From positions 682,001-746,000 of the forward strand of contig CAJINV010000020.1 of NCBI GenBank assembly GCA_905178155.1: a stretch of 64,000 nt of DNA, written 5' to 3'. Source of the DNA: Amoebophrya sp. A120 (lineage: Eukaryota > Protista > Dinoflagellata). The notes under the pieces were generated by a model. That model saw nothing but the letters and a program-made list of their open reading frames with translations. It did not search any database and was not told the DNA's origin. Made by a program: the position numbers and the translations under genes. Positions 1-62,600 of the stretch are shown in pieces. How positions within the stretch are numbered: the stretch's first letter is position 1; each line of letters opens with the position of its first letter.

Positions 1-36
1 TGAAATAAATTCGAAAACTACAAACTCCTACCACAG

Positions 37-2617
37 ATCATCCACGAGGGCGGTGCATCGTATTCCGCTCTCTGGCGTCTGCTGGACGGGCGGATTGCGG
101 TGATCTATGAGATTGGGAACCTGTCGCCAATTTTCATCCCTTTGAACATCTACGTGAAGATCCTGCCCCCGTTGGATGAATTTCTCTTCCCCGCCGGAGG
201 TGCAACTGTCCTTCCCGACTACTCATATGCATTGCAAATATGTCTGGGTCTGGAAACTTGTGATGCCAAGTGGTGACGACTGAGCACACTCCTGAGTGCA
301 GTCAAGCATGACACATTTTCAGGACGCCTTCTCATGTGTAATGCGCATGAGAAACTGCGCTTTTGCATGACAAAGAATTCGCGCTTTTGTGGGGCCGCAC
401 GCAATACAGATTTTACAGGAGTGGTAGTGGAAGACACGCATTACAGATTCCAATTTTTCCAGACCCAGACATTTTTGCACTCGATAACCCCCCCGCCGAC
501 ACAACCTCCTTCGCCTCCATGGGCTGCGCCGCTTCGTTATGAAATGCAAAAGCATCGTACTAGTATAAATTGCATTACAAATTAGCTCAGCACTACAAAT
601 AAAATTTGTAAATGCTGTTTTACCTTAGGAAAGAGATTTGTCATGCCGAACAGCAATTACTACGAGTACGATACTTTTGCAGAGCATATTCGTCTCCTCG
701 GACTGCGTACCGCACCGAGCCGCGCAGGTTCTGGCACATCGACGGCACGGACGCGTTTGTCCCGGTGTCCAGCACCGGGGTGCAGTACCAACAGCAGGCT
801 GTTCTAGTACCTTCCGGAACGGGAACGACTAGTAGTACAAACGCGACGTTGTCTGCAATGATAAACAGTGACTACCCGACCACCTGGCGGCCGTTTCAGG
901 TGCACAGTATGGATTGGCAGCAGCGACAGAAGTCCCGGTTTGATTCCAGCAGCTTCATGTTTTCCTTCACGTGGTGGGTGGTCATGTTGCTGCTGAGCAT
1001 CACCTTTGTGCTCAGCTTGCCTCTCCTCTTCCTCAGTTCGATGTGCTGCTGCTTGCCGACGTGTCGGCAAAGAAGAAGCAGTGAATTTTTGATCGTAGCC
1101 GGCGGCTGTGAGGGGAACTGTGCGGCGATTGGGGGGAACTTGCGGGAGAAGCTGGCTTCTCTAAAGCGTACTGCGGCCACTGCGAGGGACACAAATTCGA
1201 TGAAACAAGTCGTGGAACAAGAAGATGAACCACTCCAGTGCGCCGAAGATTCATCGACAGCTGCGGGAACCACCAGAGCCAAACCGGAAAGAAATACCGG
1301 AGATACAACTAGCGCCACTGTCAATATGGTTGACCCCCGTCGCGAAGAACAAGTCGAACTGGCGAATCGGAAAATAAATCTTCCGGCGGGAAGATCATGC
1401 TCGTCCTCGTGCACGACGACGACTGATGTCGAAAATATTAAAGGACTACAACAGCAGCTGCAAGATGAACGGAGTTCCTGCAAAAATAAAAGACAAATGA
1501 AAGAACATGAACATGATCGTCAACAACGACAACGTCAACACGATATTATGATGAAGGAGGACGCAAAGTGGTCTACTTCACCTACTACACAGCCGGTGAA
1601 CATGGGTGAGAACCAAAACCATGAAGGTAGTTTCAAAACACTGCTTGAAGTAGAACAAGAAGCATCAAGCTGCTTGAAGACCGAAAATGCCAAAGACTTT
1701 GGCGCCCTCTACCTCGCCGACAAGGAGCTGCAGGCTGGTGAGCAGGAGAAGCAAATGCGGATGCCATGCAAAGAGTCCGATCTCGTCCTCGGCGAATCAG
1801 AATCAGTTTCGATCACCTCGGTGAATTTCACGGACGCCAACAGCACTGCGACGCCAGTTGACCAGGAGACGGATCAGACCTCCAAAACGGATTTGAATAC
1901 AATTTTCGTACCACCCGCTGGCGTGACGAAGGATGTTGACGATGAGAATGGTCTACAGCTTCAGAAGTACTACTCCGCTACTTCAACTTCCCCAGGGGAC
2001 GAAAAGAACCCCGACGAGAGGTTGAGTGCAGCTACTTCTGTAGTTGCTGTTCTGAAAAACTTGAGCCGGTGGTTCCGCGACAACCAAAACCAGCAGCAGT
2101 ACCTGCTTCCCCTTTTGCAGCTTCTCAACAGTCTGTGGTTCGGGTTTTGGGCCTGTGGCGCGCTCTATGACAGTGCACAACTCCCCCTCGTTCTCATTTC
2201 TCATGCAAAATACCAAATCCACGCTTTCCCTCCTGTCACTATTATGCATGACAAGTTCTGGCAGCCCAAACAGAACTACACTCCAGCGCAAATTTGTCAT
2301 GCAAAACCGGTACTTTTGCTGGACTGGTGCTTGTATTGCCGTTCACGCTATACAAATGAGGGGGAGGGGGAGTTGTGCATTCTCATACGCTCCTCGCCGT
2401 CTTCTTCTCGCACGACGACCCGATCCGCTGGCTTTTCCAGACCAACTGGAGCCTTTTCGGCATGGCGTTTTCGGTCGTCTTGTGCTTGTTGAAAATGCAG
2501 TTCTTCGCCGAGTTAGGAAATTTAAAACAGCAGATACTGCAGCGGCCGAGCTTGGAGTTGGGGCTGTTAGGGATTTTCTTGCTCGTGCTTACCGGGGTAT
2601 TGTCGAAGACGCTTTGA
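37..2617 (+). CDS. 5'-partial multi-exon membrane protein; first visible exon resembles the C-terminal blade of a GH33/BNR sialidase
   Basis: After acceptor ccacag|37 it reads IIHEGGASYSALWRLLDGRIAVIYEIG (YSxL..DGxIxVxYE, sialidase-like). The frame is rebuilt across introners 226-486, 538-688 and 2166-2387. Hydrophobic segments follow (FTWWVVMLLLSITFVLSLPLL and C-terminal TMs); stop TGA at 2617. Confidence 0.7.
226..486. mobile_element. TIR introner, family A (tgcaaatatgtctgggtctggaa)
   Basis: TAT..ATA ends, ~30-bp TIR, flanks actca/acccc. Removing it plus 5 nt gives ..PDY(P/S)PADTTSF.. Confidence 0.85.
538..688. mobile_element. TIR introner, family B (tgcaaaagcatcgtactagta)
   Basis: Perfect DR ttcgt (533-537/689-693); joins ..GCAASSPRTAY.. 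Confidence 0.9.
2166..2387. mobile_element. TIR introner, family C (tatgacagtgcacaactcccc)
   Basis: Perfect DR cgctc; joins ..ACGAL|LAVFFSHDD.. Confidence 0.9.
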
Positions 2618-3956: not shown

Positions 3957-6900
3957 ATGGGTCGGGAGTCGGATGACAATTGCACCGTCTACATCTGCTT
4001 GGAGGCCAAGCAGAGCCCCAGCCAGCAGGAGCTCGGGCAAAAGCTGGCCTCGAAACGGGATGACGACAAAATCGAGGCGCTGGAGCAGATCATTCTGCAC
4101 ATGGTCAATGGCGAAAGCTTTTCCCAACTGCTCATGCAGGTACTTGAACTTTTTATACCATCGTTATGATATTATGCAGTCATGGTGCACTACATGAGGA
4201 AACACACAGAAATTCTTTGCCACGATAACAACTCTTTTCCACAGAAATTCTTTGCCACTTATCGTGGTCAACTCTTGTGGAAGAGTGACCACGATAACAC
4301 AGAAATTCTTTTCCACAGAAACTAAGAACATAAGTCTCTGCTGCGCTGTGCAGCTCCACCAGACGTGCACCACCAGAAGTGCAGAACTGGCGGCGTTGCT
4401 TGTTTTAGCACCATCAGAAGTGCGTAACTCGCATGCCGGGCGTGCCATGTCAGGATGTCAGGATAAAGCAGTCAGTCAGTCAGTCAGTCAGCAGTCATGG
4501 TGCATGATTTTTACATATACTTCACCAGGTGGTCTCTAATCTCTTTCTTTCGGGGAATCCGCATGTAACTATTACTAATGCTGAGGGATTTCTATAAGTA
4601 CGACTACGATACTTTTTTTTTCAAAATCACAAAGAAATAGAATGCAAAACGTTCTGTACACCTCCTCTACTGTCATCAGGTTATCCAATACACGGTTACC
4701 TCGAACAACCACCGGATAAAGAAGCTTCTGATGCTGTACTGGGAAATCGTGGACAAGTATAAGGAAAACGGAGAGTGGAAGGAGGAGATGATCCTCGTCT
4801 GCAATGCCATCCGAAACGACCTCCTCCACAGTAACGAGTACGTGCGCGGGAGCACCTTGAGGCTCATGTGCAAAATGAGGTAAAGAACTTTGATAGAGAA
4901 GTGGTCCTCGCCGCGGAGGTGGAGAACGCTGCTGATTTCTGTCAACATATTAAAACGACGAGGAAGTATTAAGTGGATGTTGTGCATAGGAGCCTGATGC
5001 CCACGAAGGGGGAAAAAGCCCACCGTGCATGTGGATCGGAGAAAGACGTCGGGGTACTACCAATAAGGAGGCGTAGAAAGCCGTATTATGAAAGAATAAG
5101 AACGAGGCAAGAAGATAAACTCTACGAAGATGATCCTTCATATACTTCCCACAGGTACTACAAAATCTTGGAGCCACTGATCGAAGCGATCCTGAAGAAT
5201 TTGACGCACAAGCACGCCTACGTACGGCGCAACGCAGTCATGTGCGTTTTTGCCATCATAAAAACTTTTGGCATCGAGGTTATTCCCACGGCGCTGGAAG
5301 ACGTCGAGCAACTCCTGATGGTCGAGGTACAAGCGATTATATTGTAAATTTTTGTGCTGAGGGTGAGGTAAACGTGAAGAACTACATGTGATTTTTGCTC
5401 CCATAGCAATACTGAGATTCGCAATCAATTTTCTTTGCAAGCATGTGCATGAAGCTCCAAGCATGGGCTTCTCTCCATCATTACAGGGCGATCTGTCCAC
5501 CAAGCGCAATGCTTTCCTCATGCTCGTCAACTGCGACATGGATCGCGCGGTGCAGTTCCTCGTGTCAACCCAAGATTCCGTGCCCACGTCTGGCGATCTG
5601 TTTCAGCTCGCAGTGCTGGAGTTGATTCGGAAAGCGTGTCGGGGGTCCGCGCAGTCCGGCAACACCGCCAACATGCAGCAGAACAAGACAAAACTGCTAC
5701 GAATTCTGTACAACCTTGCCGACCCCGCGCTCAGCAGCTCATTAAGCAGCACGGCAGTTGCATACGACGTCGCTTCGAGTCTGGTACAACAACTTCTGAT
5801 AGCTTCCTGCTGCCTCAATACAAGACATGGATTTTCATCATCCGACTTGAACGGATGCTCGAAAGCATGCATGTTGAGGATCTAGTTCTTAGCTCAACAC
5901 GTCGACCAACCTCACACAATTAGCATGCCGAGATATTAGGATCTCCAACAGGCAGCTGCCCCCCACACAGTACTAGAATAGATGCTCTCGTAACAACTGG
6001 CCGTTTGAAGATCCTACTTGTTTTCCCAGCTACTTATCAGGTTTCTCTAACGGGGAACGCGCAAGCGGTGACTACCGCAGTGCAGAACTACGTAAATCTT
6101 CTCACCGAGCAAAGCGACAATAACGTGAAACTGGTGGTGTTGGGGAAGCTCAAGGAAGTGCGAAAATTTCACGGGGAGGTGGTGCAAAATTTCGTTATGG
6201 ACACGTTCCGCGCCTTGTCTTCTCCGTCCCTGGATGTGAGGAAAAAAGTCATGGACCTCTGCTTGCCTCTGGTAATATTTATTGCGAAAAACAAGTACTA
6301 CTACAACCCTGGTTACTTCTTCATTCTCCGAGACTTAGTTTCTCTTTCTGAATAAAACAGCGGTAGACTGCGACTTGCTTTATTTGACCTGGGATTTATG
6401 CATCAGAATGTTTTTGCTTTTGCAAATGCAACGAAAAATTAAAATGATAGAAGGGAAACTCAAACTGCACGATTACAGGTTTCTTCCAAGAATGTGAAAG
6501 AAGTGGTGGCCCTTTTCAAGAAGGAATTGATCAAGACGTGCGGGACCGACCAGAGTGACAAGGAGTATCGGCACGAATACAGAAAAATGCTTTTGAAAGC
6601 GCTGCACGTCTGCACGATGCACAGCGCAGAGGAAGCACAGACGTTGGTACTATTAGGGGATGGTGCAGTAAGAGTAACTGCAATTTTGTTGTTGTTTTTC
6701 ATGAATGAAGAAAAGTGATGCACCACAGGACAGTGTACAGTCACAGCTTGCTGTCGTGCTTCGCTGCGTTCATACGTCCATGCTAATCGGAACTGTCAAT
6801 GATCTCTGAATGCAACGCGGCGTTTATCATGATATAACATCAGGTCTATCTCTTAATCGACTTCCTGTCGGAAGCAGACTACAACGCCACGGCCAACGAG

Positions 6901-9900
6901 ACCATAATGTATCTTCGGGAGCTGGTGGCCACCTTCCCAGAAATTCGTAGCAGCATCCTGGCAAGGTTATACCAGACGTTGCCCGACATGCAGCACAGCC
7001 GGGTCTTGAGAGGGTACAAGAACTTCTAATGCTGAAAATTTATTTATCAACATTTTATTTTTGTCATTCATTCTCTGAGGAAGATTAAAGTGATTCGGAA
7101 GTAGAGCCGCTTCTAGGTAGTTCCTCGTTGATGACGTTGTTATGGGAGAATCTTCTTCTATAATTGATCTGTATCTGCTCCATATATCAGCACCCTGTGG
7201 CTGTTTTCTGAGTACAGCGAGAAGGAGGGCCTCGAAACCGCTCTGGAGTCCACGCTCGAGGTGCTTCGGCCGCTGCCAATCATTGCGCAGAAGGAGAAGG
7301 AGGAGAAGAAAGAGGACGTGACGAAAAAGGAGGTCGAGGAAAAGAAGGAATCGAAGCAGGTGCAAACGCGCACCGTGGTGCTTGCGGACGGGACCTACGG
7401 GACCGAGGCGGTACAGGAACCGAGCTCGGAGCCCGTCGTGGAGGAGAAAAAAACGATGCTGAAGACCCTGCTTCAGCTGGGCGACTACCTACTCGCGAGC
7501 TGTCTGGGCGTCGCCCTCACCCGGATGGTCGTGCGACTCGGGGGCAAGTGCGGTGCGGAAACGAAAAACGAAGTGTTGTTCGTGGTCGCGAATTTGATTC
7601 GCCTCCTGAAGGCCACGCACAGCGCCGCGGAGAACAACGACAGCGTGTTGCGCTTGCATTTGTGCATCCGGCTCTTGTATGGATTGCAAATATGTCTGGG
7701 TCTGGAAGATTGCAACTTGTCATGCTAAATCTGAATCATGCATAAATCTGTGTTGCATGAGCGCCAAAAGCTGCCCACTTTCGGCCAAGTTGGGAGGGAA
7801 TTTCTCATGCAGTATAGGCATGGCGAAGACCTCACAGAGTTTGTCATGCTAGGTCCCGCATTCCAGACCTCATGGGTCATAGAAATCCTGCATGACAAAG
7901 CTGGCATCCTTCCAGACCCAGACATTTTTACATTTGATATCTTGACCACGCCCGAAGGCTCGACGCCTGCACTGGACCGTGTCCGGCAGAACTGGAAAGG
8001 CAGCACGGGATATCAAATGCAAATGTGTCTGGGTCTGGAAACTTGTGATGCTAAAATGTGCATGATGAAAACACTTCCGAATTTTGCCCAGCATGACAAC
8101 TTTCCAAAATGCTTTCTCATAGGCAATCCGCATGACAAACTGCGTTTTTGCATGACAAGAGAGGCTGCGACTTTTGTTGGTTATGCAATACAGATTTCCC
8201 AGGAATGTAGAGCTAGCATTACAAGGTCCAACCTTCCAGACCCAGACATTTTTGCAGTGCATACGGGCAAAGAGGACCTGATGCGCGTGATCGAACTGGA
8301 AGCGCAGAACTCCGAGTGGAGTAGGGAAAAGCTAGTGGATGAAGCACAGGAGTCAGCGCAACTGGTATTTTCTAATTGACACGACAAGCACAACACGCAG
8401 AGCTTTATTCTCATCCCGCCTGGCCTATGCATGTGCATGTCTTCTACCACGACTACGAGTTAAGTTTCTTTGGTGCATAAAATTGAATTCAAGCCTACTG
8501 GGCGTCGAGGGTAATGAGACCGCTGCAAGACGGTTCCTATAAGAATACAACCCTGGACATGGAAGATGGAATAAAAACCACGACAAATAACAGATTCCTC
8601 CCGGCGAGGCGATTTGCTTCCGGCAGCTTCGCAGGGACGGCAGGGACCGGGTAGCGAACACGCTGGACTTATCCTGTGTAAAAACGTCCCCACCGAACTT
8701 CCCAGAGTCAAGATGGAAACCTTGCAACACAGTTGTCCCAGAAGCCTTGGGGGTGGTCTCACGCATGACAACTTTTTATCTGTATTGTAAGTGGTGCAGG
8801 TTCATCGCAAAAAGGAAGGGCAGCCACGTAACAAAGTCATCTGCTTATCCCGTCTACAGCTTTAGAATGAAATGCCAAAAATGTAGGAAGAAGAAAGCCC
8901 CTCATCGTTGGGATGCGCATCGGCATCACAGACGTCTTTCTAGATATAACTCTGCATGACAAAAAGAAAAACTCTAGGGTGTGGGCCCCGTTTTTTCTCA
9001 CGATAAGACTTCGATGACGAGGGAGATTTCAACATGGCCCGGGGAGCCCTGGACCAACTCGAAAAGGACGGGTCGCTCTTCGGGGAGCGGTTGGTATGAC
9101 AGTGCACAAGTCCTGCCCCTCCCCCTCGTTTGTGATGCAAAATCCCATATCCAAGTGCTGCCTTGTGGCACCGTTTGCATGACAGATTCTGGAAGCCTAA
9201 GAAATCAGTACTACGCGCATGGTTTTATGATGCGCAGGCTTCATATGTGCAGGTGTTTCTTTTGCTGCTCATGCAACCCTTATGAGGGTCAGGGGGAAGG
9301 GGAGTTGTGCACCCTCATAGTTGGCCAACGTGCAGCAGATGACAGGCCTCGCGGATCCGGTGTACGTCGAGGCTTTCCTGCAGGTTCACAGTTTCGACCT
9401 GCTCTTGGAGATTCTACTCGTGAACCGCACCAACGACATCTTGCAAAACTGCACCGTCGAGCTCTCGACCCAGGGCGACCTGAAAATCGTCGACCGGCCC
9501 AGCCCCGTCATGCTTAGCCCAGGCCAGCAGCAGATCGTCCACGCAAGCATCAAGGTATTAAAGAGCAGTGTCAATAATTTTGGTCGGAGTATAGTAACGA
9601 CGCATCTTCCACTTCTGTGCAGTTGCCATTGAATTTTTCTAGTACGCCATTGAAACGTATGAATAACAAACAAAAAGAAAAAGTTTAATTTAAAGTTCTC
9701 GGATTGTTCCTCAGGTGTCTTCCACGGAGACCGGCGTAATTTTTGGGTACGTGAGTTTCGAAAAGAAATCGGCGGTTGACAAAGAATCCATTGTTCTCAA
9801 CGAACTCCACGTCGACATTCTGGACTACATCGAAAAGGGCTCCATCCTACGACGTGCAAGTACGATCATCTTCACCATCATTTCGACTAAGACAATTAGT

Positions 9901-11791
9901 AATTTTTATGTGTGCAGCAAGATTTATCCACGGCCACATTCACATGAAAATTCAGATGTATACAGAGCCCTTCGTGTGGATGAAGATTGAATTTTTGCAT
10001 ACTCCTAAGCGACAGCATCAGCACACATAAAATGCGCATCAAAACGATATATGTGCGCAGGCGGTGGTGAAGATAGATGCTTTTGCACAGCATAGGCTTC
10101 CGAGCTGAAGTTTCGCACGATGTGGTCTGAATTTGAGTGGGAGAATAAGATCAACATCAACACGCAGTTCAAAGAGGCCGGCGCGTACCTGATCCACATC
10201 ATGAAGAACACCAACATGATATCCTGAGGAAAATAAACGTCCCCACCTCATAGTCAGGCTGGGAAATCAGCTAGTTTTGCTTCTGGCTGGTGTTGCGCAG
10301 CATGACAGGTTCTTTGGGCTCGAAATCTAAAAATCGCAGCTTTTAGCTAGTGCAGCTGCATCACAGATCTTTCATCTCATGCTGATTGTAGCATCGCAAA
10401 TGTCATCAAACAGCTGTAGAAAATGCGTCTCAACAACATGTTGGGGCTCCGTATGAGAGACATCTTATATTACACCATGGCGATTCCGATTTCTTGCATG
10501 ACGACTCTGGGGAGGTGGGGACGTTTTCCCACAGGATGCATGAGCATTGTCGGCCGGGCCGCCGCGTCGCCCACAACTACGTCTACTGGACCAGCGGCGA
10601 CAACGACCGCCGGCGCCGTGGCAAACGGCACCACTTCCTTTATCCTGAGTATAAACGTCCCCACATCAGAGCCAATGTGGGAAATCTGCTAGACAAATCA
10701 ACCAGCTCTGGTTGTTTCGCATGACAAGCTCTTTGCCCTCGTAGTGTAATACTACCAAAACACGAATAGAAAATGCTAATGCTTCCGCATGAGAAACTTT
10801 TTCTTTCTGTGCATGCAGATTTGATTGGCATGACAGTGAGCTGGGATGGGGACGCTTTTACGCAGAATATCCTCCCTGGCGAACGGGACGAAGCCCGCTC
10901 CGGTCGCGGAGAAGCGGTCGCTGCAGGCCATTTTGAACGCGGCCAACGCCGGAGGCGGGTCGAAAACTACGATAGCGGACACGGAGGACAACCCGGTGTT
11001 GCTGATGGGCATATGCATTGCAAAGTCGTGTCGTACTAGCACACATTGCATCACAAATTTCATCGGCAAGAACAAAAGTGGAGTTTGTCGTGCTGATTTA
11101 GGTTATTTCAGAATAAAAAATATTTGTAATGCATGACTGCGAGTGCGACGAAGACGATATCACTTTTGCAATTCATAAGGCAGGAACGATAGTAAGTTGT
11201 CCAAGGAGCAGTCGTTGCAGCTGCAGAAGGAGTCGAACAAGCAGAGCAAGAAGCACCTCAACATGGGGGAAATTTTCACGCAGTTCGAGGAGGCTTTGGG
11301 CATCAAAAAACTGCTTTCTATCATTTGTACAAACGTGGTCCACCTCCGGCCCAGAGTTTGAGTTGTCATGCGGATTTGCAATGACAGGAAAATCTGTATG
11401 AATGCGCACGTCGTCCTCCATGAGAGGCATTGATGGATTTTTGATGCGTTTGTCCTTGCTGACCTGTACACACTACACCGTCAGGACTGCAAGATGAACT
11501 TGTGATGCGTGAGTCCCAAAACTTCTAGGTTTGTGTTGCAAAGTCGATCACTCTGGGGAGGTGTGGGCCCCGTTATTTTTTCTCACGATACCTTCCCAGT
11601 CTAACTTTGTGGGTCTCAATCTCTACTCTCGGAGCATTTTCGGGGAAGACATCCTTGCGAACATCAGCATCGAGCAGATCCGCGACGACAAGGGCGTGCC
11701 GACCCGACTCTCCGGCTCCGTCAGGATACGGAGCCGTGCGCAGGGCATCGCGCTGTCCCTGGGAGAGCGGGTGTCGGCCGTGCAGCGGTGA
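3957..11791 (+). CDS. COPB1: Coatomer subunit beta (beta-COP), ~19 exons
   Basis: Conserved motifs KKLLMLYWEIVDK, EMILVCNAIRNDLLHSNEYVRGSTLR, HAYVRRNAV, QMTGLADPVYVEA, FRTMWSEFEWENKININT, NLYSRSIFGEDILANISIE, SVRIRSRAQGIALSLG. Nine GT-AG introns (4140-4679, 4880-5154, 5327-5486, 5784-6040, 6272-6478, 6647-6843, 7014-7190, 8365-8593, 9555-9714) plus nine introners. Confidence 0.96.
4205..4497. repeat. Intronic imperfect repeats (acagaaattcttt x3) and a (CAGT)n microsatellite
   Basis: Seen directly in COPB intron 1; the CAGT run is at ~4469-4497. Confidence 0.7.
7678..7939 (-). mobile_element. TIR introner, family A, reverse orientation
   Basis: Perfect DR tcttg; joins ..CIRLL|TTPEG... Its left interior matches the reverse complement of the right interior of 30669-30912. 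Confidence 0.88.
8011..8263. mobile_element. TIR introner, family A
   Basis: DR cggga/cgggc; joins ..KGSTG|KEDLMR.. Confidence 0.9.
8670..9005. mobile_element. TIR introner, family D (aaacgtccccacc)
   Basis: DR ggact/agact; joins ..NTLD|FDDEGD.. Confidence 0.85.
9095..9319. mobile_element. TIR introner, family C
   Basis: Perfect DR gttgg; restores the COPB motif RLANVQQMTG. Confidence 0.92.
9848..10094. mobile_element. Degenerate TIR introner (TAC..ATA, DR eroded)
   Basis: TIR tacgacgtgcaag..atcttcacca / tggtgaagat..ttttgcacagcata; flanks catcc/ggctt do not match. Removing it plus 5 nt restores DYIEKGSxSELKFRTMW. Confidence 0.75.
10220..10538. mobile_element. TIR introner, family D (TAT..ATG)
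   Basis: Perfect DR catga; joins ..KNTNM|SIVG.. Confidence 0.88.
10641..10869. mobile_element. TIR introner, family D
   Basis: DR tcctt/tcctc; frame restored. Confidence 0.85.
11012..11177. mobile_element. TIR introner, family B-like
   Basis: DR gggca/aggca; joins ..LLMG|RNDSK.. Confidence 0.85.
11319..11590. mobile_element. TIR introner, family D-like
   Basis: DR ctttc/ccttc; joins ..KKLLS|QSNFVGLNLYSRSIFGED. Confidence 0.88.
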
Positions 11792-13411: not shown

Positions 13412-15054
13412 ATGGCACGGTGGGGCTCTATTTACCGTATGACCCCCGTGGTCGGTGGTGCGTTGCTGTCTTTTTTCTGGCAACTACACGGTGCGGGACT
13501 CGGAATGATCCCTGAAGTCGAGGCCACGCCTTCGTTGCGCAGTTCTGGACACCAGCCGCGCGGCTCTACTACACGCGACCGCCTTGTTTCGTTGCGCACT
13601 TCTGGACACGAGCCGCACTCTACTCCACCCGGCCGCCTCCCCCGTGACGAATGCGGAGGCGCCCTCTTGAGTTGTTTGTTTCGGCCGGAAAGAACGGGGG
13701 CGAACACATCGGACGACATCGAAGAGCGAGGGGCGGCTCAAGTGGACCCTCTGGCTTTGCGTCCTGCGCGTCGAAGTCGATCCGAGCAGGGGAGGGCAAA
13801 CCTTCCCCGGCGTCCGTGGAGAAATCTTCCCCTGGATGGTCCGGGTTGTTCTACGGCTGACAACATCACAAACGCAAACGCAAACTTGCACAGCATTTTG
13901 CACCTTGATCACGTGCGAAAGAGCATTGGGCAATACGCATATCCATATGTCGCTGCTGCACTCAGACCAAACAGCCCAGTACAACTATATTGGGGCGCCT
14001 TTGTGCGGTCCCGCCATTCGTCCAATTACCTCGACGACGATGGTCTCAGTCGAGGGGTCTTCCTCGTAATCTCCGGCTCGCGCGATCCCCAGGCTGCACT
14101 CCGGAAGGAGGGGTTGGTGCTGAAGGTTGGTCCTGAAGGTTTCACTGCGGAAGCAGGGGCTTGGACCAGAATCTTCCCCCCGCACCCCCCGCCCCGAAAC
14201 GGTATGCCGATGCTGGAACTGGTGCTGAGCACTGAAATTGTTTTGCGTACCGATGCACCACCTGTGTTCCGCGTCCAACCAGCTGGGGAAGAGAAAACTC
14301 CGATTGGTGACGAGAATACGCCCCTTATCTTGAGCAAAAACGTCGCCACCCCAGAGTTGTATATGCAAATCTGCGTGCTATAGCTATGATAAAACGCTTC
14401 TCATGCGAGGAGGGACCCATGAGAAGCATTTTCTCGTGGTGTTTTGCGATTTGTGATGCTCGAATCAGCATGATGCACTAGATCTGCGATGCTGCTGCTC
14501 TGCCTACCTCCTAAACAGAACTACATTGCGAGCCCAAATTTGTCATGCGCAACAACCAAAGGCTATTAATGTAATGAAGATTTTGAGTTTTCTAGCAGAT
14601 TTCCATTTCCCAAAAAAAAAAAAAAATTTCCCAACTTGACTATGGGGTGGGGACGTTTTTGCTCAGGACACCCCTCGAAGAGGTTACGGACTTGCAGAAG
14701 CAATTCCTCGTCGGTCTTGCCCGAAAAAATTGCGGTCGGTCTCGCGGCGCCGCACGCTGGCTCGACAATTATCATCAGCTTGTTCGGTCGGAGATGCCTT
14801 TGCCGAGGTGGGACCTCCTTCTCGAGGACATCCAGCGGGGGTGCAGGAGCCAAACCTGTCGATACTACTCTAACGCAGTGCGCTTTGCGACGGACTTCGC
14901 TGAATTTTCTCACACTGGGGAGGAGGGGTTGGGTCTGATGAACGCGAGTTACAATACTTCGATGCCAGCAGGAAATGCTACCCATCTCAGTTTTCGTCGA
15001 TGCGAGAGTGACTCGCTGGAGGCAGATCGGCACGAGCACACATTTATTGTTTGA
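13412..15054 (+). CDS. Hypothetical protein with signal-peptide-like N-terminus, 2 exons
   Basis: ORF 13412-14325 joins ORF ..15054 in frame across introner 14326-14670 (NTPL|EEVTDLQ). Short internal duplication (SLRSSGHQPR/SLRTSGHEPH). Confidence 0.7.
14326..14670. mobile_element. TIR introner, family D (TAT..ACA)
   Basis: Perfect DR cccct; TIR tatcttgagcaaaaacgtcgccacccca / tggggtggggacgtttttgctcaggaca. Confidence 0.9.
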
Positions 15055-43216: not shown

Positions 43217-43641
43217 GGTTGACAAACCAAAATCTCAACCACGCCAATTTGTCTCAACGTTGAGACAAAACGCCCCAACGTTGACACCGACGCCTCAACT
43301 TCGGCACCGTTTAGGGATTAGGGTCTAGGGTTTGGGGTTCTGGTCGTCGGCCAGGGCAGCCGCCGCCGGCCGGCCGGCCGGCCGGCGGCGGCTGCCCTGG
43401 CCGACGACTCTCTCCTTTCCTTGTGTTGTGTTCCACACCCGGCGCACCCCTGCCCGTGTGTGTTGCCGCGTCCTTGCCCTCCTTGTGTCTCATCGACCCC
43501 GCCTCGCGTCAATGGCGGCGGGCGTACCTCTCCGCCGCTACCGACGAGCGTTGTTTGGGGCCGCCGGGCAATCGTTGAGACGATTGCCCATCGGCCTCAT
43601 GAACGTTGAGACAAGAACGTTGAGATTCTGGTCTGTTAACC
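43217..43641. mobile_element. Mutator(MULE)-like MITE, 425 bp, 9-bp target-site duplication (TSD)
   Basis: TSD aaatatatt (43208-43216/43642-43650); TIR ggttgacaaaccaaaatctcaac / gttgagattctggtctgttaacc; subterminal aacgttgaga repeats. Confidence 0.88.
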
Positions 43642-53176: not shown

Positions 53177-56100
53177 ATGATTCGGGGGAAACCGCCGCGG
53201 CGGCGCCTCAGTGCGGCTGTTGCGACCTCACCGCGCAGTTCCTCCGAAAGTGCGACGCCGTTCCGGAGCTTGATAACGCGGCAAAACGAACGGAAGAGCC
53301 GCCAGCCTCCCCCGCAAATTCTACCTGTTGAAGTGAGGAAATCGGATCCACCACAAGCAGACAACAACCGCCTGCGCAGTTCGGGCAACTACAGCCTCAA
53401 CACGGGGCAACATGACGAAAGGTCAGCAGCAGGTTTGCCCCCTCGACGACTCACGTCCGGTCGTGAGTCGGTGCGGAGTGCGGCCTCATCGTCGAAGCCC
53501 CGTCGAGTCAAGCGAAGCCCCGTCGAGTCAAGACGCGTGAAGGATCAGATCAAGCACGAAATGCAGCAAGTTTTGCAGCAAGAAGACGATGTTTCTATGG
53601 TGCCTAGTATTGGCAGTAAAGCAACTACGTCGATGAAGAACCACCAGCATCCTTGGTCGCCGAAGCAAGCCCGGTCGCCGAAAGACAAAGATCAAGTTCT
53701 CCAAGCAGAAAATAGCAAAGTATCGCCGAAATCGAAACGACACAAGCCCTCCGTGAAAGAAAAGTTCCTTGAGAAAATGACCATCGGGGGGCCGCGAGGC
53801 GGGAGTAAAGACGGGATTCTTGCAAACGAGCAGTCTTCGCAGCAGCAGCAGCTTCCGGCCGCCGGCAAAGCGAGTAAGGCGATCAATGTCAATGCGGTAG
53901 ACCACCGACTGCATCATGGCGACCAAGCGCAACAGCAAGATCATCTTCGTGAAAGCGCCGATAAAAGAACTACAAACACCGATCTTCAACACCATCATCA
54001 GCAAGTTCTCCTGAAACCGATGAAGCTTCCGCATTCGCCGTTGGCCTCTCGGCGGACACGTCCACAGACCGGCGGTGGCTCGCCCGGAGGGGCTGGCGGA
54101 TCATCGTCTCCAGTTGCAGCTTATGCATTGCAAAAGTTGTATCTCACTAATCCAAATTGCATCACAATTTTTTTCAAGAAGAAAAATGGAATTTGTAATG
54201 CTGATTTGCCTAAAAAGGGATATTTGTGATGCATGATAGCAATTACAACTACGAGTACGATTACGATACTTTTGCACAGGATACAGCTTCGCAGTTCGAA
54301 GACGCTCCGGTTGTCTCGCCACGAGATACGAGTCGGAATCTGCTTTCGAAAGCTGCAGCTGCACAAGGCCAGCAAAGTTACAACCAGCAGGCCCAGGCGC
54401 AAGGTCAATTATGTCTTCCGCTGTCCCCAGCGCAGCAGCGTAATCATCAGCTACATCCTCAGCAGAAGAATCAGGTTCCGAGTACGCAGGACGCAGCCGA
54501 GGACCAGTACAGCAAGAAGAGGCTAGATGAGCAGACCTCCTCCTTCATTCTGCCGAAGTTGGTAGGGGCCGCGGTCGCATGACAAAGTTCGTCGAGGGAC
54601 TACGGTTGACTCAGCGATCTGGAAGCAGCGATTACGTCTGGTCGTGAGTCGGTGCGGAGAGCGGCCTCATCGTCGAAACTGACCACAGCCACACCGTCCT
54701 CAACGTTGCACCCCCCGCAAGAGGACGGACAAGTAGACCGCCGCCGGAGCGGCAAAGGTAACACGACCATTAAGCAGTCTTCTAAGAATCTGGTGGACCA
54801 GCAGCAGTTGGAGCTCGATTTCCTTCGGCGCCCCAGCGTGTTTGAGACTGCGGAGAACAGGTTTGCTTCGGTCCACGGGGGTAAGCGCGAAGCCTACAAC
54901 CTGTTGCTGAACCTGTGTTCTGATGACGTGGTCCGGGCGCACGGGTACGACCCGGACCGCTGGAGTTACCAAGTGTACGAGTCGCAGTGGATGACGGGGT
55001 TCCTGGTCGCTGTGGTGGCCGTCAACGTGGTGCTGATTGGTTTCGAAGCCGCCGACGAAATGAACAACAAGCCGGAGAACCAGACCTCGCAGGAGGTAGC
55101 GGACGACTTCATGTTTTCCTCCTGGTGGTTTGTGGAGCTTGGGTTTTTCATCATTTACTTGGCGGAGATATGCCTGCGGTTTCACGCGTACGAATACCGC
55201 AGTCTGTTTTTTCTCCGCGGCGACTGGTTCAACAACTCCCTTGACTCGTTGCTCCTGGCACTGCAAATCGTCGAGCTGGCTGGCGCGTCCAACATGGGCA
55301 TCGACCTCGGGTTCATGAAGATGGTGCGGCTGGCGCGGTTGACCAAGCTGAAGGCGAGCGAGAGCATCTGCATGACCTCGGCCGTGTTGATTGAGTCCAT
55401 CCTGGAGTCCGTGTTCCTCTTTTTCCTGCTCTTCCTCCTGATCACCGTGAACGCCACGGTCGTCATGGTCTACCGCGCCTCGTTCGGCAAGTTCGAGGCG
55501 GATTCGCTGGAATTCGGAACCACCGCGTTTTTCAGCGACTACGGGGCCGCGGTCTACACCTTCGTGCAGCTGACCCTGGTGGACAGCGTCTTTGACCGGT
55601 TTCGGGAGCTCACCGGCGAGGCGCCGGTGCTCGGAGTGCTGGCGATTTTGCACATTTTGCTGGGCTCGATCATGATCATGAGCCTGGTCATCGGTCTGGT
55701 CACGGACATCCAGTTCCGCACGCAGAAGGCCATGCGCCTGCAGAAAAAGCTGGAGTCGGCCGTGGAGCTCGCGAATTGGCTGATCGTAAACGTCGGGGCA
55801 GTGGATTCCCATCTGAATAGTCTCATCCTCGCACGGGAGCGCAGAAAAGAAAAAGATGAGGAAGATGGCATGGGGAAGGGTGGAATAAATCTACTCAACA
55901 AGAACAACAACAAACCACTTGATGGCGCTGCACCGGGTAACAATGAAAACGAAAAGGATGGCGTCGAAGAAGATGTTCATCTTGGGGGACAGAAGCAGGC
56001 GACAATGAAAAAGGCCGACAATGATCCTAGTTCTCCTACAAGTTCTACTCAAGACCAGCAGGCGAACGCCAGTGCTGATGCACCGCCTCCCGAGGACATC

Positions 56101-58439
56101 ACACATGCGGGCCCCAAAGAGAGCAAACCAACAGGAGACCACGTGGTGAAACACGTACTAACCAAGGAACAAGATACCGGACCCGGGCGCGAGGAGACGC
56201 AGTTGCGTGCGACGCAGGGTCTGACCATCCCGTATTGAGAGGAAAAATCCCCCCTCCCCATATCGAAAACGAAATTTGTGATGCTGTATTTGAGTACACA
56301 AATCGACTTGTAATGCTAGAAGGCCAAGAGCCGCAGTTGTGGCCTCGTTTGCAGGCAATTTGTCATGCTGTTTCCCACTTCCAGTTGCTTCCTGTCATGC
56401 TGAAGATGCAAGGCTTCCCCACGCCACCCAGCACTACAGTCCGCATCCTTTATTCCCGTCTAGCATGACAAAGCTGATTTGTGACTGCAAATCTGCATCA
56501 CAGATTTCCGTTTTGATATGGGGAGGGGGGATGTTTCTTCTTGATATCCCGGTGAGCGTGTTTTACGATCCGGTTGTGCAACGGCAGATGCGGGTGGTGG
56601 GGCACGTGAACGAAGAACACATTCCCTACGTGATTATCTCCGCGATCCAGGAAACCGCCCGGGCGGCGGGGGTCCCGGACGACGCCAACCTGCATTCCGT
56701 GACGGCGATGGCGGTCGCCGAGAGCATCTACATGCGCGAGCTGGACCTGGGCCGCGACGACGTTCTGACCGCTTTCCAGGAGACCAAGCGGGTGCGCAGC
56801 TTCATCGGGTGGCAGAGCCGCCTGCAGTTTCTCGGCATGGAGCTCCAGCGGCTGGTGCTCTATACCCTAGGGCACATCTTGGAGACAAGACCAGAAATAA
56901 CTACAACAAACAAGCAAGGCGGGTCGCCAGCTGCTGCGAAGATGTCCAGCAAAATAACTTACGACCCAACTAGTACTTCTAGTTCTGCTGGAAACTACAG
57001 AGTAAGTACAGGCACAGCTACTGGAGGGACACGACCAGCAGATGATGGGGTTCTAGCATCGGGCAGTATGATTTTCCCGGAACGTGGTTTTGCCCCGACC
57101 TCTACATCACCGGGGACCGAGTACCTGCTGCCGTCCAGTGGTAACAGCTACAAGGACCGACGAGACAGTACAACTAGCACAACTTCTGTGCAGCTGGATC
57201 CTCAAAGAACGGGCGTTGCCAGCGATCAAGCACCCTTCAGTCCTGCTGGTAGCAAAGGCACGACAAAGTTGGCAGTTCCCCGCCCGCACGGCGTGCTTCC
57301 CGAAGGGGAAGGACTCCAAGAAGGGCTAAGAACTACGAGCAGCGCCGATCATGCCGGCAGCGACCACGAGCTCCTGCTCGAGGAAAGTGATACAGACGAA
57401 ATTTTGTTCGGAGCAGAAGCGCGTCATCTTGCTGACGCCCCTGCAGCACTGCACGTGCACCTTGACGAGGCACTGCACATTTACGAGAATACCGTGCAGA
57501 ATCAGAATAGGACGTGGTCGAACCAGAGAAACAAAAACCAGAACTACCAACGAAAGAATAATGTGCGTGCCGAGGGCGAAATGGCGGGCGAGCTGCCGGC
57601 CATGTCAGTGCAGCAGGGACTGCTGACGCCGGCCATGAAGAGGCGGCTGCAGGAACGGCAGGAGCAGGGCCGGTCCTCTCTCCTGAGCCTGTTCAGTACG
57701 AACAGTCCTCCGGGCTTCCGTTCGTTCGACAGTTTGAACAGGAGCACGATGGCTAATAAGCACCTGGTTGGAGTAGACCACCACGCCGAGCTGCATACCC
57801 TGTTGCTGCAGCAGATGGCGTCTCTGGAGCGGTTGACCAAGGAACAGGACTTCTCCCAAGATATTCTGTGCAAAAGTATCGTACTCGTATTGCAATCATG
57901 CATTGCTGCAAATCCCTTTGTTAAGCTTAAGGTAAATCCGCATTACAAATTTTATTTCTCACGCTGAGGAAATTTGTAAATGCATTTATAGGACGAGTGC
58001 GATACTTTTGCAGTTCATACAAGACGACTACAGGCAACACATCCTGGCGCGGTGCACCGGCGGCCGCGGGGTCGGCGGAAATAAGAAGGGATCGTTAGGC
58101 GCGGAGATGAACAACATAGAGGCTCCTGACGCACCAGCCGCCGGCTCCTCGCCGTTGGAAAATAAAACCACGGAGGCACGGCTGCTGGAAATCATGGAGC
58201 TTTTGTACCTGAAGTGCGAGGCAGAGAACATGCTCCCTTCGTGTGGGGTCAAGTACCACAGTGCCAGCGCGGCCATCGTGGACGACTTGGTGCGGGACCG
58301 GCTGGAGCGGCAAGGGAGTACCCTCGCCTCCGTCCTGCAGAACCGCCTGCAGAACGCGCTCAGAAGCGAACTCTTGCAGCAAGGCATGCAGATCGACACG
58401 CAGGTCTTGCAAACCAGGATTGGCCACACGGTTTCGTGA
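53177..58439 (+). CDS. Single-domain 6-TM voltage-gated cation channel-like protein with long disordered termini (linkage of the 53177-54557 part is uncertain)
   Basis: S1 FLVAVVAVNVVLIGFE, S2 FFIIYLAEICLRF, S3 WFNNSLD, S4 MKMVRLARLTKLK, pore FSDYGAAVYTFVQLTLVDS, S6 IMSLVIGLVTD. Introners at 54122, 56233 and 57862; putative 57-nt intron 54558-54614. Confidence 0.78.
54122..54283. mobile_element. TIR introner, family B
   Basis: Perfect DR cagct; joins PVAA|SQFEDA. Confidence 0.9.
56233..56546. mobile_element. TIR introner (long TIR, atcccccctccccatatc family)
   Basis: Perfect DR tcccg; joins GLTIP|VSVFYDP. Confidence 0.9.
57862..58019 (-). mobile_element. TIR introner, family B, reverse orientation
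   Basis: Perfect DR caaga; its reverse complement aligns by eye with 538-688 and 61434-61583; joins FSQD|DYRQH. Confidence 0.9.
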
Positions 58440-59677: not shown

Positions 59678-62600
59678 ATGTCTCACGTTCCGTGCATCGG
59701 AGTGGCGACCACAGGCGCTTTCGACGAGACAGCAAGAACTCCAAGACGAAAGCGACCCCACTTCTACAAGAACCGGGTGGCGGGTCTAAGAATTACAAGT
59801 AGAATTACCGGGGCAAGCGCCGGGTATTTGCTACTGTTTCTGGTTTGGCTATTGGGAAGAGCAGTGCATCACCTTCTGGTGCAGCACCCCTTGCTAAGGC
59901 AAGAATCCGAATCGTTGCCACTAGTACAGCAACCACCTCTACTACTCGTGGACGCGGTTACCGTCCGCCGCGTCTACAGGGACAACTACACGAGGAATAA
60001 GCAGAGGAGCGTCAGCACCAGCGTGACGAGTACAAGAACCACGGGAGCTGCGACCGGATCCAATGAGGTTCTTTTGCGACGGAGCGGCATTTCGACCGTG
60101 CAAATCGATACTGGACGAACCACACATGAGAATGATGAAGACGAGACCGCAACAGGCCCGGATTGCGAAGGCACGCTGAAATGGAAAATGGATTCGACGG
60201 CCTCGGGCGACACGGAGATCTGGAGGGACACGCACGCAGACGCCGTAAGTTACTGCAAATCTCCCGATGTGGTCCCCTCTCTTACTGCCGCACAAGCCAC
60301 CAGTTTCACCCGTCAATTCCAAACGACCCTCGAGCCGGGTACTGGAGGCAAAAACTGCGACACAGTCGAGGATGAACTGGTTCAAATGCTGAAGGGCGAT
60401 CTGGGCGACGCCGTCTTCGACAGCCAACGCACAGTCGCCTGTAGTGACCACACGGCCATCAACTGTGCCGGGCGCTGGAAAATCATCTCCGACCCGCCTT
60501 CCGATTACACAGAGGAGTACGCTGACCTAGGGCTCGCACGGCACGCAGCCATCCGGGAGTGTGTGGACCTGGGAAATGACGCTGCGGAGAATGTAAACAG
60601 GACGCTGCAATTTGTGGTCGACCAGGAATCCCTGAATGGCGGAGAATCTTGTGAGGATTTCGTCAATTCACAGAACAATCCCACGAACGTCGTGGTCAAG
60701 AACGTCGACACTGAACAAATCACACACGACGTAATCTGCAAGGACCACCAATGCGGGTGCACGAAGGGAGAGGTAGACACGAGCGACTCGGGGAAAGCCA
60801 AATGCGAAGGCACTGGGAACGAGGAACAGAATTGCGAGAAGTGCAATCAAGGGTTCAAGATTAGGGAAAACTGGCCCACCGTGAACCAGACTGGATGTGT
60901 GCCGTTTTGCGGCGGACTTCCGCCGGCTGAGTGGAGTGCCACTGATGGGACTTATTACACGTTTTGGGGTTCGCTAACCTCTACCAGCCATTGTCCGTAT
61001 TTTGTTGAGAATTTCTTGACGCAGGAACAACTACTCGTTGTCCTCTCCGAGACAGGGTTGCGCAATAGGTTTTGCAGAAAAGAATATGATCCGGAGCGCG
61101 GCCTGGGTGGGTGTTTCGAGAAGAAGCAAAGCTGCATCGAGCCGGACAGCGCTGCGGTTCAAATTTCCTCAGGATCATGGAGCTCCTCCATTTTAACCCG
61201 TGCCTCGTTGGCCCCCGGCGGGAAAATTGTTCACGCAGGCACCTTTAGGGAAGTTGACCACGCGGTCAGCATCCCCGAACTGAATCCGTCGTGCCCGAGT
61301 CGCTACCAGGGCGAGCCGAAGTTTTACTGCACCGACGGCGGAGAGCCGCTAAGTGTGACCGGTTGCACACTTATTCCCAGCGTGACGTACGAGTTTTACC
61401 TGACGATCAAGGGGGCAAGTGATACGGTTGCGGTATGAATTGCAAAAGCATCGTACTAGTATAAATTGCATTACAAATCTTCTCAGCATGAAAAATTGAA
61501 TTTGTTATGGTGTTTTACACTGGAAAGGACATTTGTCATGCATAACTGCAATTAGTACGAGTGCGATACTTTTGCACAGGATACGCGGACCTCGATAGCA
61601 ACGGGGAGTTCAAAGACGCCGTCAAGGAAGGGCTTCTGGAGTACCTTGGGAACGAAAAAGGTTTCGACCGAACCAAACTGAGCATCGAAGAAGTGACTCT
61701 GGAAGTACACAGTGCGAGCGCTTCGTCCTTCGTGCAGCTGGGAACGACCACCGCCGTAGTTGAGCGACTTGTAATAGAGGAAAACATTGAACAAAAGCAG
61801 GCGACGAGGACGCACGTCGAACTCACGCGGAAGGAAAAGAAGAACAAGAAGCTTCATACCGAAACAACAAAAGTTATCAAAGTAACCGTGGTTGTCCGGC
61901 CCACTACTGCAGATGTCGTTGTGAACAATATTTCCCTACCGGCTTCTGACGCAGACGATTACTTTGATACCGACGCGGACGCGTTGGAAAACCGGGTTAG
62001 TGACGCGCTCTTGGCTAGTACTAGCAGCCAACCAAGTGGCGCGTTGGCCTTGGCGGGTGTACAAGTCGGACGTGACTGCGATGGCTTTCTTCAGTACGAA
62101 GTTCTTGGTTCTTCCGAGCCGACAGTACTCCCTTATTACGAAAACGCCACAGACTACTGCATCCAGCTCACCTCGTGGTCCGAGGCAGTGGCCACGAATG
62201 TAACGCGGACTTTCAAAATGACTTCCCCACAAAGCGGCCAAGGGCTTGACTGCGATGCAAAGCACGCACAGCTGGAAAGGGTAGCACTGACACTTTTGAA
62301 GCTTGAGCCGGTAGTTCAGTGTAGCAAGTACGTGGAAATCGATTGCGAGGGGTACTGGCGGCTCACGCGTGTGGAGGACCACTCTGGTAATAATCAAGAA
62401 ACGGAACTATCCCAAACGGAAGCCAATCTCGCCGACGCGCAGAGTGCGGCGGGGAACGAATGTTCGAAGGAAGGGAGCGTGCTAACCGTGACGGACGTGA
62501 TACGCTTGGACTTTGTGCAAACAGTACAGCCGCGGAACGCTGGAGACAGCTGCGCAGTAGTTTCCGGGGGGAGTATGGACGCCAGCGGCACGCTACTTCC

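What the first reader, a model, noticed from the sequence alone, without database searches (positions are those of the whole stretch)
226..61583. Intron system made of TAT...ATA transposons with 5-bp target duplications and no GT-AG
Seen: 28 elements of 150-780 bp interrupt coding exons. They begin TAT (once TAC) and end ATA (once ATG, once ACA) with terminal inverted repeats. The flanking 5-mers are identical in 13 copies and 4/5 identical in 8. Deleting the element plus exactly 5 nt restores the frame (32366 is the exception), including conserved motifs such as RibD APN|PWVG, COPB RL|ANVQQMTG and PX ITSG|PTLSW. For the ribD copy the six possible registers give GA-TA, AA-AG, AT-GA, TC-AA, CT-AT and TA-TC, none canonical. 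Established: IR/DR-bounded non-canonical introners are reported from Amoebophrya genomes, and to my knowledge their excision mechanism is unresolved. Inference: a fixed rule (TAT/ATA stem plus one 5-nt repeat) defines the junction, implying structure-guided removal by a modified spliceosome or another enzyme. An essential gene such as COPB carries nine of them, so removal must be efficient.
Basis: partly seen in the sequence, partly recalled or inferred. Interest (0 to 1): 0.9.

Follow-up and report, generated by a model that had tools for sequence, protein, structure and literature searches.

The report
Amoebophrya hairpin introns: one fixed cut
These are the already described transposon-like introns of the parasitic dinoflagellate Amoebophrya A120; transcript assemblies show them cut out without GT-AG signals, every junction that could be read fits one fixed position (one base before the hairpin, four bases after it), and this likely reflects a modified spliceosome guided by the hairpin.

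Summary
Observation confirmed: 28 TAT...ATA elements, 13 perfect and 8 four-of-five 5-bp duplications, nine in COPB. The window is Amoebophrya sp. A120; the elements are its published introner elements (Farhat 2021). Transcript contigs skip exactly element+5 nt at 14 of 14 fully read junctions; three more follow by arithmetic; a DNA run keeps the elements. 32366 is no exception. The addition: all junctions allow only one common register, intron = N-TAT...ATA-NNNN; three fix it uniquely (P about 0.01 if registers were random). That puts U at +2 and A at +3, as in 11 of 11 canonical introns here (GTA), with no G(+1) or AG requirement. The paper's text calls the sites variable or unknown; I could not see its figures. 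Best guess: a U1-less spliceosome reading N|UA with the stem placing the 3' cut (0.5); rival: Euglena-like nuclease/ligase (0.33). No lariat or circle data. Ten elements lack RNA checks; a public model reads through 2166. The scan noted similar hairpin introns in other genomes, none in this one.

The parts
226..486 (+). element (predicted intron 225-490); flanks 3/5
   Evidence: public model P0121 is spliced here and needs register 3 or more; no RNA joint shown
538..688 (+). element (intron 537-692); flanks 5/5
   Evidence: spliced in P0121; no RNA joint shown
2166..2387 (+). element (predicted intron 2165-2391); flanks 5/5
   Evidence: removal unverified: P0121 reads through it, no joint shown
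3957..11791 (+). COPB (coatomer beta) gene, 9 GT-AG introns and 9 TAT...ATA introns
   Evidence: 1092-aa ORF identical to P0001; Pfam Adaptin_N, Coatamer_beta_C, Coatomer_b_Cpla on exons
7678..7939 (+). COPB element (intron 7677-7943); flanks 5/5
   Evidence: RNA joint 7672-7940, skip 267
8011..8263 (+). COPB element (intron 8010-8267); flanks 4/5; register 4 or less
   Evidence: RNA joint 8004-8263, skip 258
8670..9005 (+). COPB element (intron 8669-9009); flanks 4/5; register 1 or more
   Evidence: RNA joint 8665-9007, skip 341
9095..9319 (+). COPB element (intron 9094-9323); flanks 5/5
   Evidence: RNA joint 9089-9320, skip 230
9848..10094 (+). COPB element starting TAC (intron 9847-10098); flanks 0/5; register uniquely 4
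   Evidence: RNA joint 9846-10099, skip 252, no ambiguity
10220..10538 (+). COPB element ending ATG (intron 10219-10542); flanks 5/5
   Evidence: RNA joint 10214-10539, skip 324
10641..10869 (+). COPB element (intron 10640-10873); flanks 4/5; register 4 or less
   Evidence: RNA joint 10635-10870, skip 234
11012..11177 (+). COPB element (intron 11011-11181); flanks 4/5
   Evidence: contig length sum 1177 = 1177; P0001 needs register 1 or more
11319..11590 (+). COPB element (intron 11318-11594); flanks 4/5; register 2 or more
   Evidence: downstream piece starts 11593 and length sum fits
14326..14670 (+). element ending ACA (intron 14325-14674); flanks 5/5
   Evidence: RNA joint 14320-14671, skip 350
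26133..26353 (+). degenerate element (intron 26132-26357); flanks 3/5; register 1-4
   Evidence: RNA joint 26128-26355, skip 226; absent from DNA run X5
26420..26583 (+). element (intron 26419-26587); flanks 5/5
   Evidence: RNA joint 26414-26584, skip 169; absent from X5
27312..27474 (+). degenerate element (intron 27311-27478); flanks 2/5; register 3-5
   Evidence: RNA joint 27309-27478, skip 168; absent from X5
30669..30912 (+). element (intron 30668-30916); flanks 5/5
   Evidence: contiguous RNA pieces ending 30663 and starting 30913
32366..33147 (+). 782-bp GC-rich element (intron 32365-33151); flanks 2/5; register uniquely 4
   Evidence: RNA piece ends 32364; bin depth 3.95 equals a restart at 33152; frame open
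37576..37827 (+). element in PX/WD40 gene (intron 37575-37831); flanks 4/5
   Evidence: RNA piece ends 37571, one side only
37864..38128 (+). element in PX/WD40 gene (predicted intron 37863-38132); flanks 4/5
39971..40154 (+). element (intron 39970-40158); flanks 5/5
   Evidence: contiguous RNA pieces ending 39965 and starting 40155
45131..45455 (+). element (intron 45130-45459); flanks 3/5; register uniquely 4
   Evidence: contiguous RNA pieces ending 45129 and starting 45460
47725..48144 (+). ribD element (predicted intron 47724-48148) with a nested insert; flanks 5/5
   Evidence: 627-aa frame; Pfam deaminase and RibD_C; outside the stretches laid with RNA
49090..49260 (+). degenerate ribD element (predicted intron 49089-49264); flanks 1/5
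   Evidence: frame; RibD_C profile 1-83 before and 109-170 after; no RNA check
54122..54283 (+). element (predicted intron 54121-54287); flanks 5/5
   Evidence: no RNA check
56233..56546 (+). element with an inner second TAT...ATA pair (predicted intron 56232-56550); flanks 5/5
   Evidence: no RNA check
57862..58019 (+). element, reverse orientation of the 538 family (predicted intron 57861-58023); flanks 5/5
   Evidence: no RNA check
61434..61583 (+). element (predicted intron 61433-61587); flanks 4/5
   Evidence: no RNA check

Best explanation
The elements are the Amoebophrya A120 introners, likely non-autonomous DNA transposons with 5-bp target duplications, which are missing from the transcripts at junctions that all fit one fixed register (one base before TAT, four bases after ATA), and are likely removed by a modified U1-less major spliceosome. 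Shown: anatomy, repetition, both orientations, loss of element+5 nt from transcript contigs, retention in DNA contigs, and one register common to all junctions read. Inferred: a transposase made the 5-nt staggered insertion; the 5' site is read as N|UA(U/C), the canonical GUA of this genome without its G; the inner stem (arm positions about 8-24) brings the two ends together and places the 3' cut by distance, replacing the AG and the G(+1)-G(-1) contact; the near-invariant A at -7 is a candidate branch nucleotide (speculative). Because one copy of the duplication leaves with the intron, the coding sequence is restored wherever the element lands and in either orientation. Confidence by step: known A120 introners 0.98; RNA-level removal 0.93; single register 0.85; spliceosome as catalyst 0.5.
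For: Skip = element+5 at 14 of 14 fully read non-canonical junctions; allowed registers intersect only at 4; 9848 and 45131 are unambiguous, 32366 too by piece end and depth arithmetic. Chance of a common register if each were random: 0.012 for 15 junctions, 0.005 for 17 when one-sided ones are treated as resolved. The same contigs lack GT-AG introns, so they are spliced cDNA. At that register +2 is T and +3 is A in 28 of 28; the 11 RNA-supported canonical introns all start GTA (7 GTAC, 2 GTAA, 2 GTAT; A follows internal GT in 28 of 136). In the yeast P complex U(+2) pairs with U6 A51, whereas G(+1) pairs with the 3' G(-1) (10.1101/212811, passages): the kept base is the snRNA-read one and the two lost ones are partners. 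U2, U4, U5, U6 and most spliceosomal proteins are present and U1 undetected in A120 (PMC7789003 section 10); a relative with GT-AG introns has U1 (PMC12005148). In A25 the repeats start TTA and all nine commonest non-canonical pairs start TT, which would again give U+2 and A+3 from a different element. Terminal mismatches (TAC at 9848, ACA at 14326) do not block removal. One family is spliced in both orientations (7678 and 8011).
Against: No lariat, circle or protein evidence at all. The stem would bury the 5' site and the usual branch region (arm positions 8-13 pair 142 of 168); +1, -1, -2 and -3 are free in the window and in 207 oriented copies of another assembly (G at +1 65 of 207, AG 21 of 207; coding background G 0.295, AG 0.072), so the known step-2 contacts are absent. 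TA at +2/+3 comes with the transposon end and one register in six gives it by chance; copies were also found by that motif. In 133 oriented copies found without requiring TAT/ATA, +2/+3 carried 3 changes against 2 at the partner positions -5/-6, so no extra constraint was seen (orientation calls were right in 16 of 19 window cases, no RNA). Only three junctions are unique, from two samples of one study, as contigs; 11 and 118 joints were not displayed. Ten of 28 elements have no RNA check and public model P0121 reads through 2166. The A120 pairs of Table S4 all start NT but eight of nine also end AN, so aligner choice can explain them. Euglena's similar introns leave as circles and are thought not to use the usual spliceosome.
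Confidence: 0.5

Rival explanations
1. Same elements and same fixed register, but removal is by a dedicated stem-measuring endonuclease plus RNA ligase (or a second, unrelated machine), as proposed for euglenid non-conventional introns; the intron would leave as a circle or linear piece.
For: No base requirement at +1, -1, -2, -3; cuts at fixed distances from a stem; works in both orientations. Euglena introns obey a fixed-offset code N3CDG...CH'GN5-6|R and their authors favour distinct factors (PMC12501133); circles reported there (PMC11282704).
Against: The register is the one of six that reproduces the canonical +2U/+3A, apparently also in A25. The flanks are direct repeats, so no exon-exon helix for a bulge-helix-bulge substrate; cuts lie outside the duplex with a 3-nt stagger, unlike RNase III (both geometries recalled). 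U1 loss coincides with these introns.
Confidence: 0.33
2. Removal is exact in length but slides among registers within the duplication (as the 2021 paper's text suggests); the common register here is luck.
For: Only three unique junctions; seven of the 15 resolved ones allow every register. Fig. 3 and S23 legends describe variable positions, 1-5 nt from the repeat.
Against: Intersection of all ranges is exactly one register, P about 0.01; public models agree at 226, 11012, 11319; aligner placement inside direct repeats explains apparent spread, as noted for Euglena 'slidable' introns.
Confidence: 0.1
3. The junctions are reverse-transcriptase slippage across a hairpin between direct repeats (falsitrons).
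For: Hairpin plus short direct repeats is the described substrate (PMC8240250); all RNA data here are cDNA contigs.
Against: Exact removal with flanks 0/5, 2/5 and 3/5 (9848, 32366, 45131); retention would shift or stop the frame in at least 26 of 28; COPB homologues align straight across conserved insertion points.
Confidence: 0.03
4. The elements are excised from DNA at some life stage (IES-like) before transcription.
For: Transposon ends and a duplication-restoring junction; only one DNA sample examined, and contigs drop rare forms.
Against: DNA run X5 shows depth 0 at the three non-canonical joints listed, one contig runs unbroken over 25900-30697 (three elements) and others cross element borders. 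The cut is asymmetric (4+1) on the transcribed strand although the termini are symmetric (inference).
Confidence: 0.03

Closest known systems
Introner elements / non-canonical introns of Amoebophrya sp. A120 (Farhat et al. 2021, PMC7789003)
   Same: Same genome and same elements: inverted repeats starting TAT, seven variable bases, then A run; 3-5-nt direct repeats (5 bp in the Fig. S19 legend); 29,850 copies; no transposase; RNA-supported.
   Different: The text and legends I read call the splice position variable or unknown and the repeats variable in length; here the duplication is strictly 5 nt and the junctions fit one register, N-TAT...ATA-NNNN. Figures were not visible to me.
Non-conventional introns of euglenids (PMC12501133; review PMC11282704)
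   Same: MITE-like, terminal pairing, direct repeats, no GT-AG, cuts at fixed offsets from paired triplets, defined from non-slidable junctions.
   Different: Euglena: N3CDG...CH'GN5-6|R; here N1 TAT...ATA N4 with no purine rule (next exon base is a purine in 13 of 28). Circles are reported there; nothing is known here.
Introners of Polarella, Symbiodinium and Aureococcus (10.1101/2020.10.14.339549)
   Same: TIR elements with fixed-length duplications that create introns, some in both orientations.
   Different: Those recruit G-starting donors and AG from the element or the duplication and use several registers; these need neither and use one.
Non-canonical introns of the tunicate Fritillaria borealis (via PMC11282704)
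   Same: MITE-derived, TIR and TSD, handled by a changed major spliceosome.
   Different: Fritillaria keeps preferred ends (AG-AC, AG-AT); here only +2 to +4 and -7 to -5 are fixed.

Membership tests
Amoebophrya A120 introner elements (Farhat 2021) | host genome is A120 | tested here: met
   exons 100% identical to proteins named Amoebophrya sp. A120; spliced COPB identical over 1092 aa
Amoebophrya A120 introner elements (Farhat 2021) | inverted repeat starting TAT, about seven variable bases, then at least three A | tested here: met
   TAT 27 of 28; A at arm positions 11-13 in 26, 24, 25 of 28
Amoebophrya A120 introner elements (Farhat 2021) | 3-5-nt direct repeats at the borders | tested here: met
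   5-nt repeat, 21 of 28 at 4/5 or better
Amoebophrya A120 introner elements (Farhat 2021) | repeated families | tested here: met
   families at 67-83% identity within the window; high DNA depth over elements; about 310 stretches with one arm motif in the metagenome collection
Amoebophrya A120 introner elements (Farhat 2021) | absent from transcripts, non-canonical ends | tested here: met
   14 junctions read on both sides, 3 by arithmetic, 1 one-sided, of 28; no GT-AG register in any
MITE / non-autonomous TIR DNA transposon | terminal inverted repeats and fixed-length target duplication | tested here: met
   46 of 63 perfect 5-bp duplications in other loci, none to five at other lengths
MITE / non-autonomous TIR DNA transposon | insertion in either orientation, no coding capacity | tested here: met
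   reverse matches within families; longest frames of the 782-bp element have no Pfam match
MITE / non-autonomous TIR DNA transposon | cognate transposase and empty sites in relatives | not tested
   no whole genome held; no orthologous empty site fetched
U2-type spliceosomal intron | GT/GC...AG ends | tested here: not met
   at the fixed register 8 of 28 start GT, 1 of 28 ends AG, none both
U2-type spliceosomal intron | U at +2 (and A at +3 as in this genome's canonical introns) | tested here: met
   28 of 28 and 11 of 11; partly built into how elements were found
U2-type spliceosomal intron | lariat through a branch A, snRNP dependence | not testable with these tools
   only assembled contigs; raw reads of X8, X9 did not lay on the window
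Euglenid non-conventional intron | N3CDG...CH'GN5-6|R signature | tested here: not met
   N1 TAT...ATA N4, purine after the intron 13 of 28 (signature)
Euglenid non-conventional intron | excision as full-length circle | not testable with these tools
   no reads of excised RNA
Ciliate-type IES | removed from somatic DNA | tested here: not met
   DNA run X5 keeps the elements and lacks the listed joints; one sample only
RT-slippage artefact (falsitron) | junction depends on flanking direct repeats; gene intact without removal | tested here: not met
   exact removal with 0/5 repeat; frames need removal

The most novel reading that the evidence does not exclude
Amoebophrya A120 (and A25) run a spliceosome that has dropped U1, the 5' G, the 3' AG and their mutual contact, keeping only U(+2)/A(+3) and letting a transposon-derived stem measure the 3' cut, perhaps with the A at -7 as branch point; one simple code, N|UAU...AUA-NNNN|, would then account for tens of thousands of seemingly random splice sites and make any insertion of these transposons harmless in either orientation.
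Probability: 0.35. Interest if true: 0.85.

Novelty: already known. Interest (0 to 1): 0.5.

Why it matters
How Amoebophrya removes more than 60% of its introns without GT-AG has been open since 2021. A single register turns apparently random splice sites into a code with exact predicted ends, which can be checked at once on existing RNA-seq, fixes gene annotation, and tells where to place primers for lariat or circle sequencing. If the spliceosome does it, it would show that the intron-end contacts thought to drive exon ligation can be replaced by RNA structure; if not, it points to a second splicing machine that arose apart from the euglenid one.

Tried and rejected
No whole genome is held, so no genome-wide junction or transposase search was possible. 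No listed holder is on record as RNA; X1 and X4 were taken as cDNA because they lack GT-AG introns. Raw-read runs X8 and X9 gave 4 and 2 partial reads: no evidence either way, so no efficiency figure. X7 behaved as noisy DNA of the same sample as X5. A search for the public RibD model, which could have tested the register at 49090, found nothing among proteins of 294-2000 aa. Rfam found nothing in the window. No Pfam match in the two longest frames of the 782-bp element. AT-drift at mismatched duplications gave no register signal. A test for extra constraint on +2/+3 was negative to inconclusive; +4 had 5 changes against 1 at its partner -7, a hint only. Mismatches at arm positions 4, 5 and 7 are a family trait of the two ends (18, 18, 12 of 63 paired), so I do not read them as selection for an open 5' site. 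My first start for one element (27321) was wrong and was corrected by RNA. Three guessed canonical introns (38366, 38922, 42145) had wrong borders and were dropped; canonical counts use the 11 RNA-supported ones. Table S4 of the 2021 paper was not counted as support for A120 because aligner choice confounds it. No branch consensus was evident by eye in the 11 canonical 3' ends.

Full report
Observation. Flank identity is 111 of 140 against 41 in shuffles, and only length 5 fits. Arms pair at positions 1-3 (81 of 84), weakly at 4-7 (52 of 112), and well at 8-13 (142 of 168) and 14-24 (211 of 308). The elements fall into families of 67-83% identity, some in opposite orientations, and no extra copy was found outside the 28.

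Organism and prior work. A COPB exon and an exon of the first gene are 100% identical to proteins named Amoebophrya sp. A120, and the spliced COPB frame equals the 1092-aa public protein. Farhat et al. [quoted passage not shown] Gozashti 2025 (PMC12130899, passages) assigns A120 introners to several transposon groups without a splice rule. Four literature searches listed no paper giving a fixed register; subscription papers, figures and bioRxiv supplements were outside my view.

Removal from RNA. Two assembled runs, guessed to be RNA (two samples, one study), were laid on 1-15000 and 25900-45899. In one search, 15 of 26 joints were displayed: 7 GT-AG and 8 non-canonical. In one search, 15 of 133 joints were displayed, of which 4 were RNA joints (1 GT-AG, 3 non-canonical) and 11 were repeat-to-repeat matches of DNA contigs; three more junctions come from contiguous pieces in its table 8. 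All 14 skip exactly element+5 nt. 11012 and 11319 follow from a contig length sum (1177 = 1177), 32366 from a piece ending at 32364 and a bin depth of 3.95 that equals a restart at 33152, and 37576 is seen on one side. Ten elements have no RNA check: six lie outside the stretches laid, four were not displayed; public model P0121 is spliced at 226 and 538 but reads through 2166. The DNA run X5 keeps the elements and has depth 0 at the listed joints. Contigs give no efficiency.

The register. Where the two flanking 5-mers differ, the transcript shows which copy each base came from. Calling k the number of upstream bases kept, the ranges are 4 only (9848, 45131, 32366), 3-5 (27312), 1-4 (26133), 4 or less (8011, 10641), 1 or more (8670, 37576), 2 or more (11319), and unrestricted for perfect repeats; they meet only at 4. 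With registers drawn at random, a common value arises in 1.2% of trials for 15 junctions. The public proteins allow 3 or 4 for COPB and 3 or more at 226; their independence from these runs is unknown. The intron is therefore N-TAT...ATA-NNNN. Its first two bases are AT 9, GT 8, CT 6, TT 5 and its last two are spread over 12 pairs. All host genes examined read on the + strand, so this is the transcript's direction.

Wider sample. A pattern scan of the metagenome collection returned 148 loci (146 in the script folder, 415,651 bp) carrying the same families; the 80 loci listed lie on contigs of one assembly. Family-anchored copies start TAT in 66 of 70 and end ATA in 67 of 70; 46 of 63 have a perfect 5-bp duplication. 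Among 297 copies, 207 could be oriented by a codon model (right in 16 of 19 called window cases, partly training data): G at +1 is at background (65 of 207) and AG at the end is near background (21 of 207). There is no RNA for these loci. A test for stronger conservation of +2/+3 than of the partner bases was not positive.

Mechanism. Shown: transposon anatomy, RNA-level loss, one compatible register. Inferred: the catalyst. For the spliceosome: the register is the one of six that gives U+2 and A+3, shared with all 11 RNA-supported canonical introns; in the yeast structure U(+2) is read by U6 while G(+1) is read by the 3' G (10.1101/212811, passages), so the bases lost are mutual partners; the A25 data would give the same +2/+3 from a different end sequence; U1 is missing where these introns occur and present in a relative with GT-AG introns. 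Against: the stem covers the 5' site and the branch region, all 3' contacts are absent, and Euglena, the closest analogue (PMC12501133, passages and Discussion; review PMC11282704, passages and section 6; diplonemids PMC12621601, passages), has a fixed-offset stem code with circular products. I put the spliceosome at 0.5 and a nuclease/ligase at 0.33. RT slippage (PMC8240250, passages) and DNA excision are unlikely for the reasons listed under rivals. Introners of other dinoflagellates recruit G-starting donors and AG in several registers (10.1101/2020.10.14.339549, passages), unlike these.

Membership and verdict. The elements are members of the A120 introner class on every feature tested. 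They work like MITEs (transposase and empty sites untested) and like euglenid non-conventional introns, but fail the euglenid signature and the GT-AG rule, so they are filed under neither. The system is already known; the single register is the part I could not find in print, rests on three unique and seven bounding junctions, and makes the open mechanism directly testable. Earlier notes of this scan describe similar hairpin-bounded introns in other genomes and none in this one; I did not check them and they did not change my reading. Interest 0.5.

Noticed in passing
window 47765-48022: 258-bp, almost fully palindromic insert nested in the ribD element and flanked by a TTA duplication; looks like a second MITE type (PIF/Harbinger-like by its TTA site, label recalled).
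   Followed up: partly
window 56261-56518: A second TAT...ATA inverted pair inside element 56233-56546, without its own direct repeat; the family has 84-93% identical copies in other loci.
   Followed up: partly
window 43207-43650: Intergenic element with about 35-nt inverted ends in an AT-rich site, internal palindrome and telomere-like TTTAGGG-type units; DNA depth about ten times single copy.
   Followed up: no
window 33148-33210: After the 782-bp element lie a partial copy of its 3' arm and a near-copy of about 35 nt of the upstream exon, now read in frame: a likely repair footprint that became coding.
   Followed up: partly
window 2166-2387: The public protein model reads through this element instead of splicing it; annotation miss or real retention.
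   Followed up: partly
window 4140-36408 (11 canonical introns): All RNA-supported canonical introns start GTA and 10 of 11 end CAG, with no evident pyrimidine tract or branch consensus.
   Followed up: partly
window 25700-25965: An RNA contig continues from 25965 into sequence matching the coding stretch near 25650-25680, implying a further intron that joins the upstream frame to the 25965-27570 gene (loose end).
   Followed up: no
window 36246-36588: Short gene with a GT-AG intron whose product resembles elongin C by eye (recalled; no Pfam match on the 59-aa exon).
   Followed up: no
window 33400-45129: Single RNA contigs span several neighbouring co-oriented genes (for example 35343-37571 and beyond), which may be overlapping UTRs or assembly joins.
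   Followed up: no
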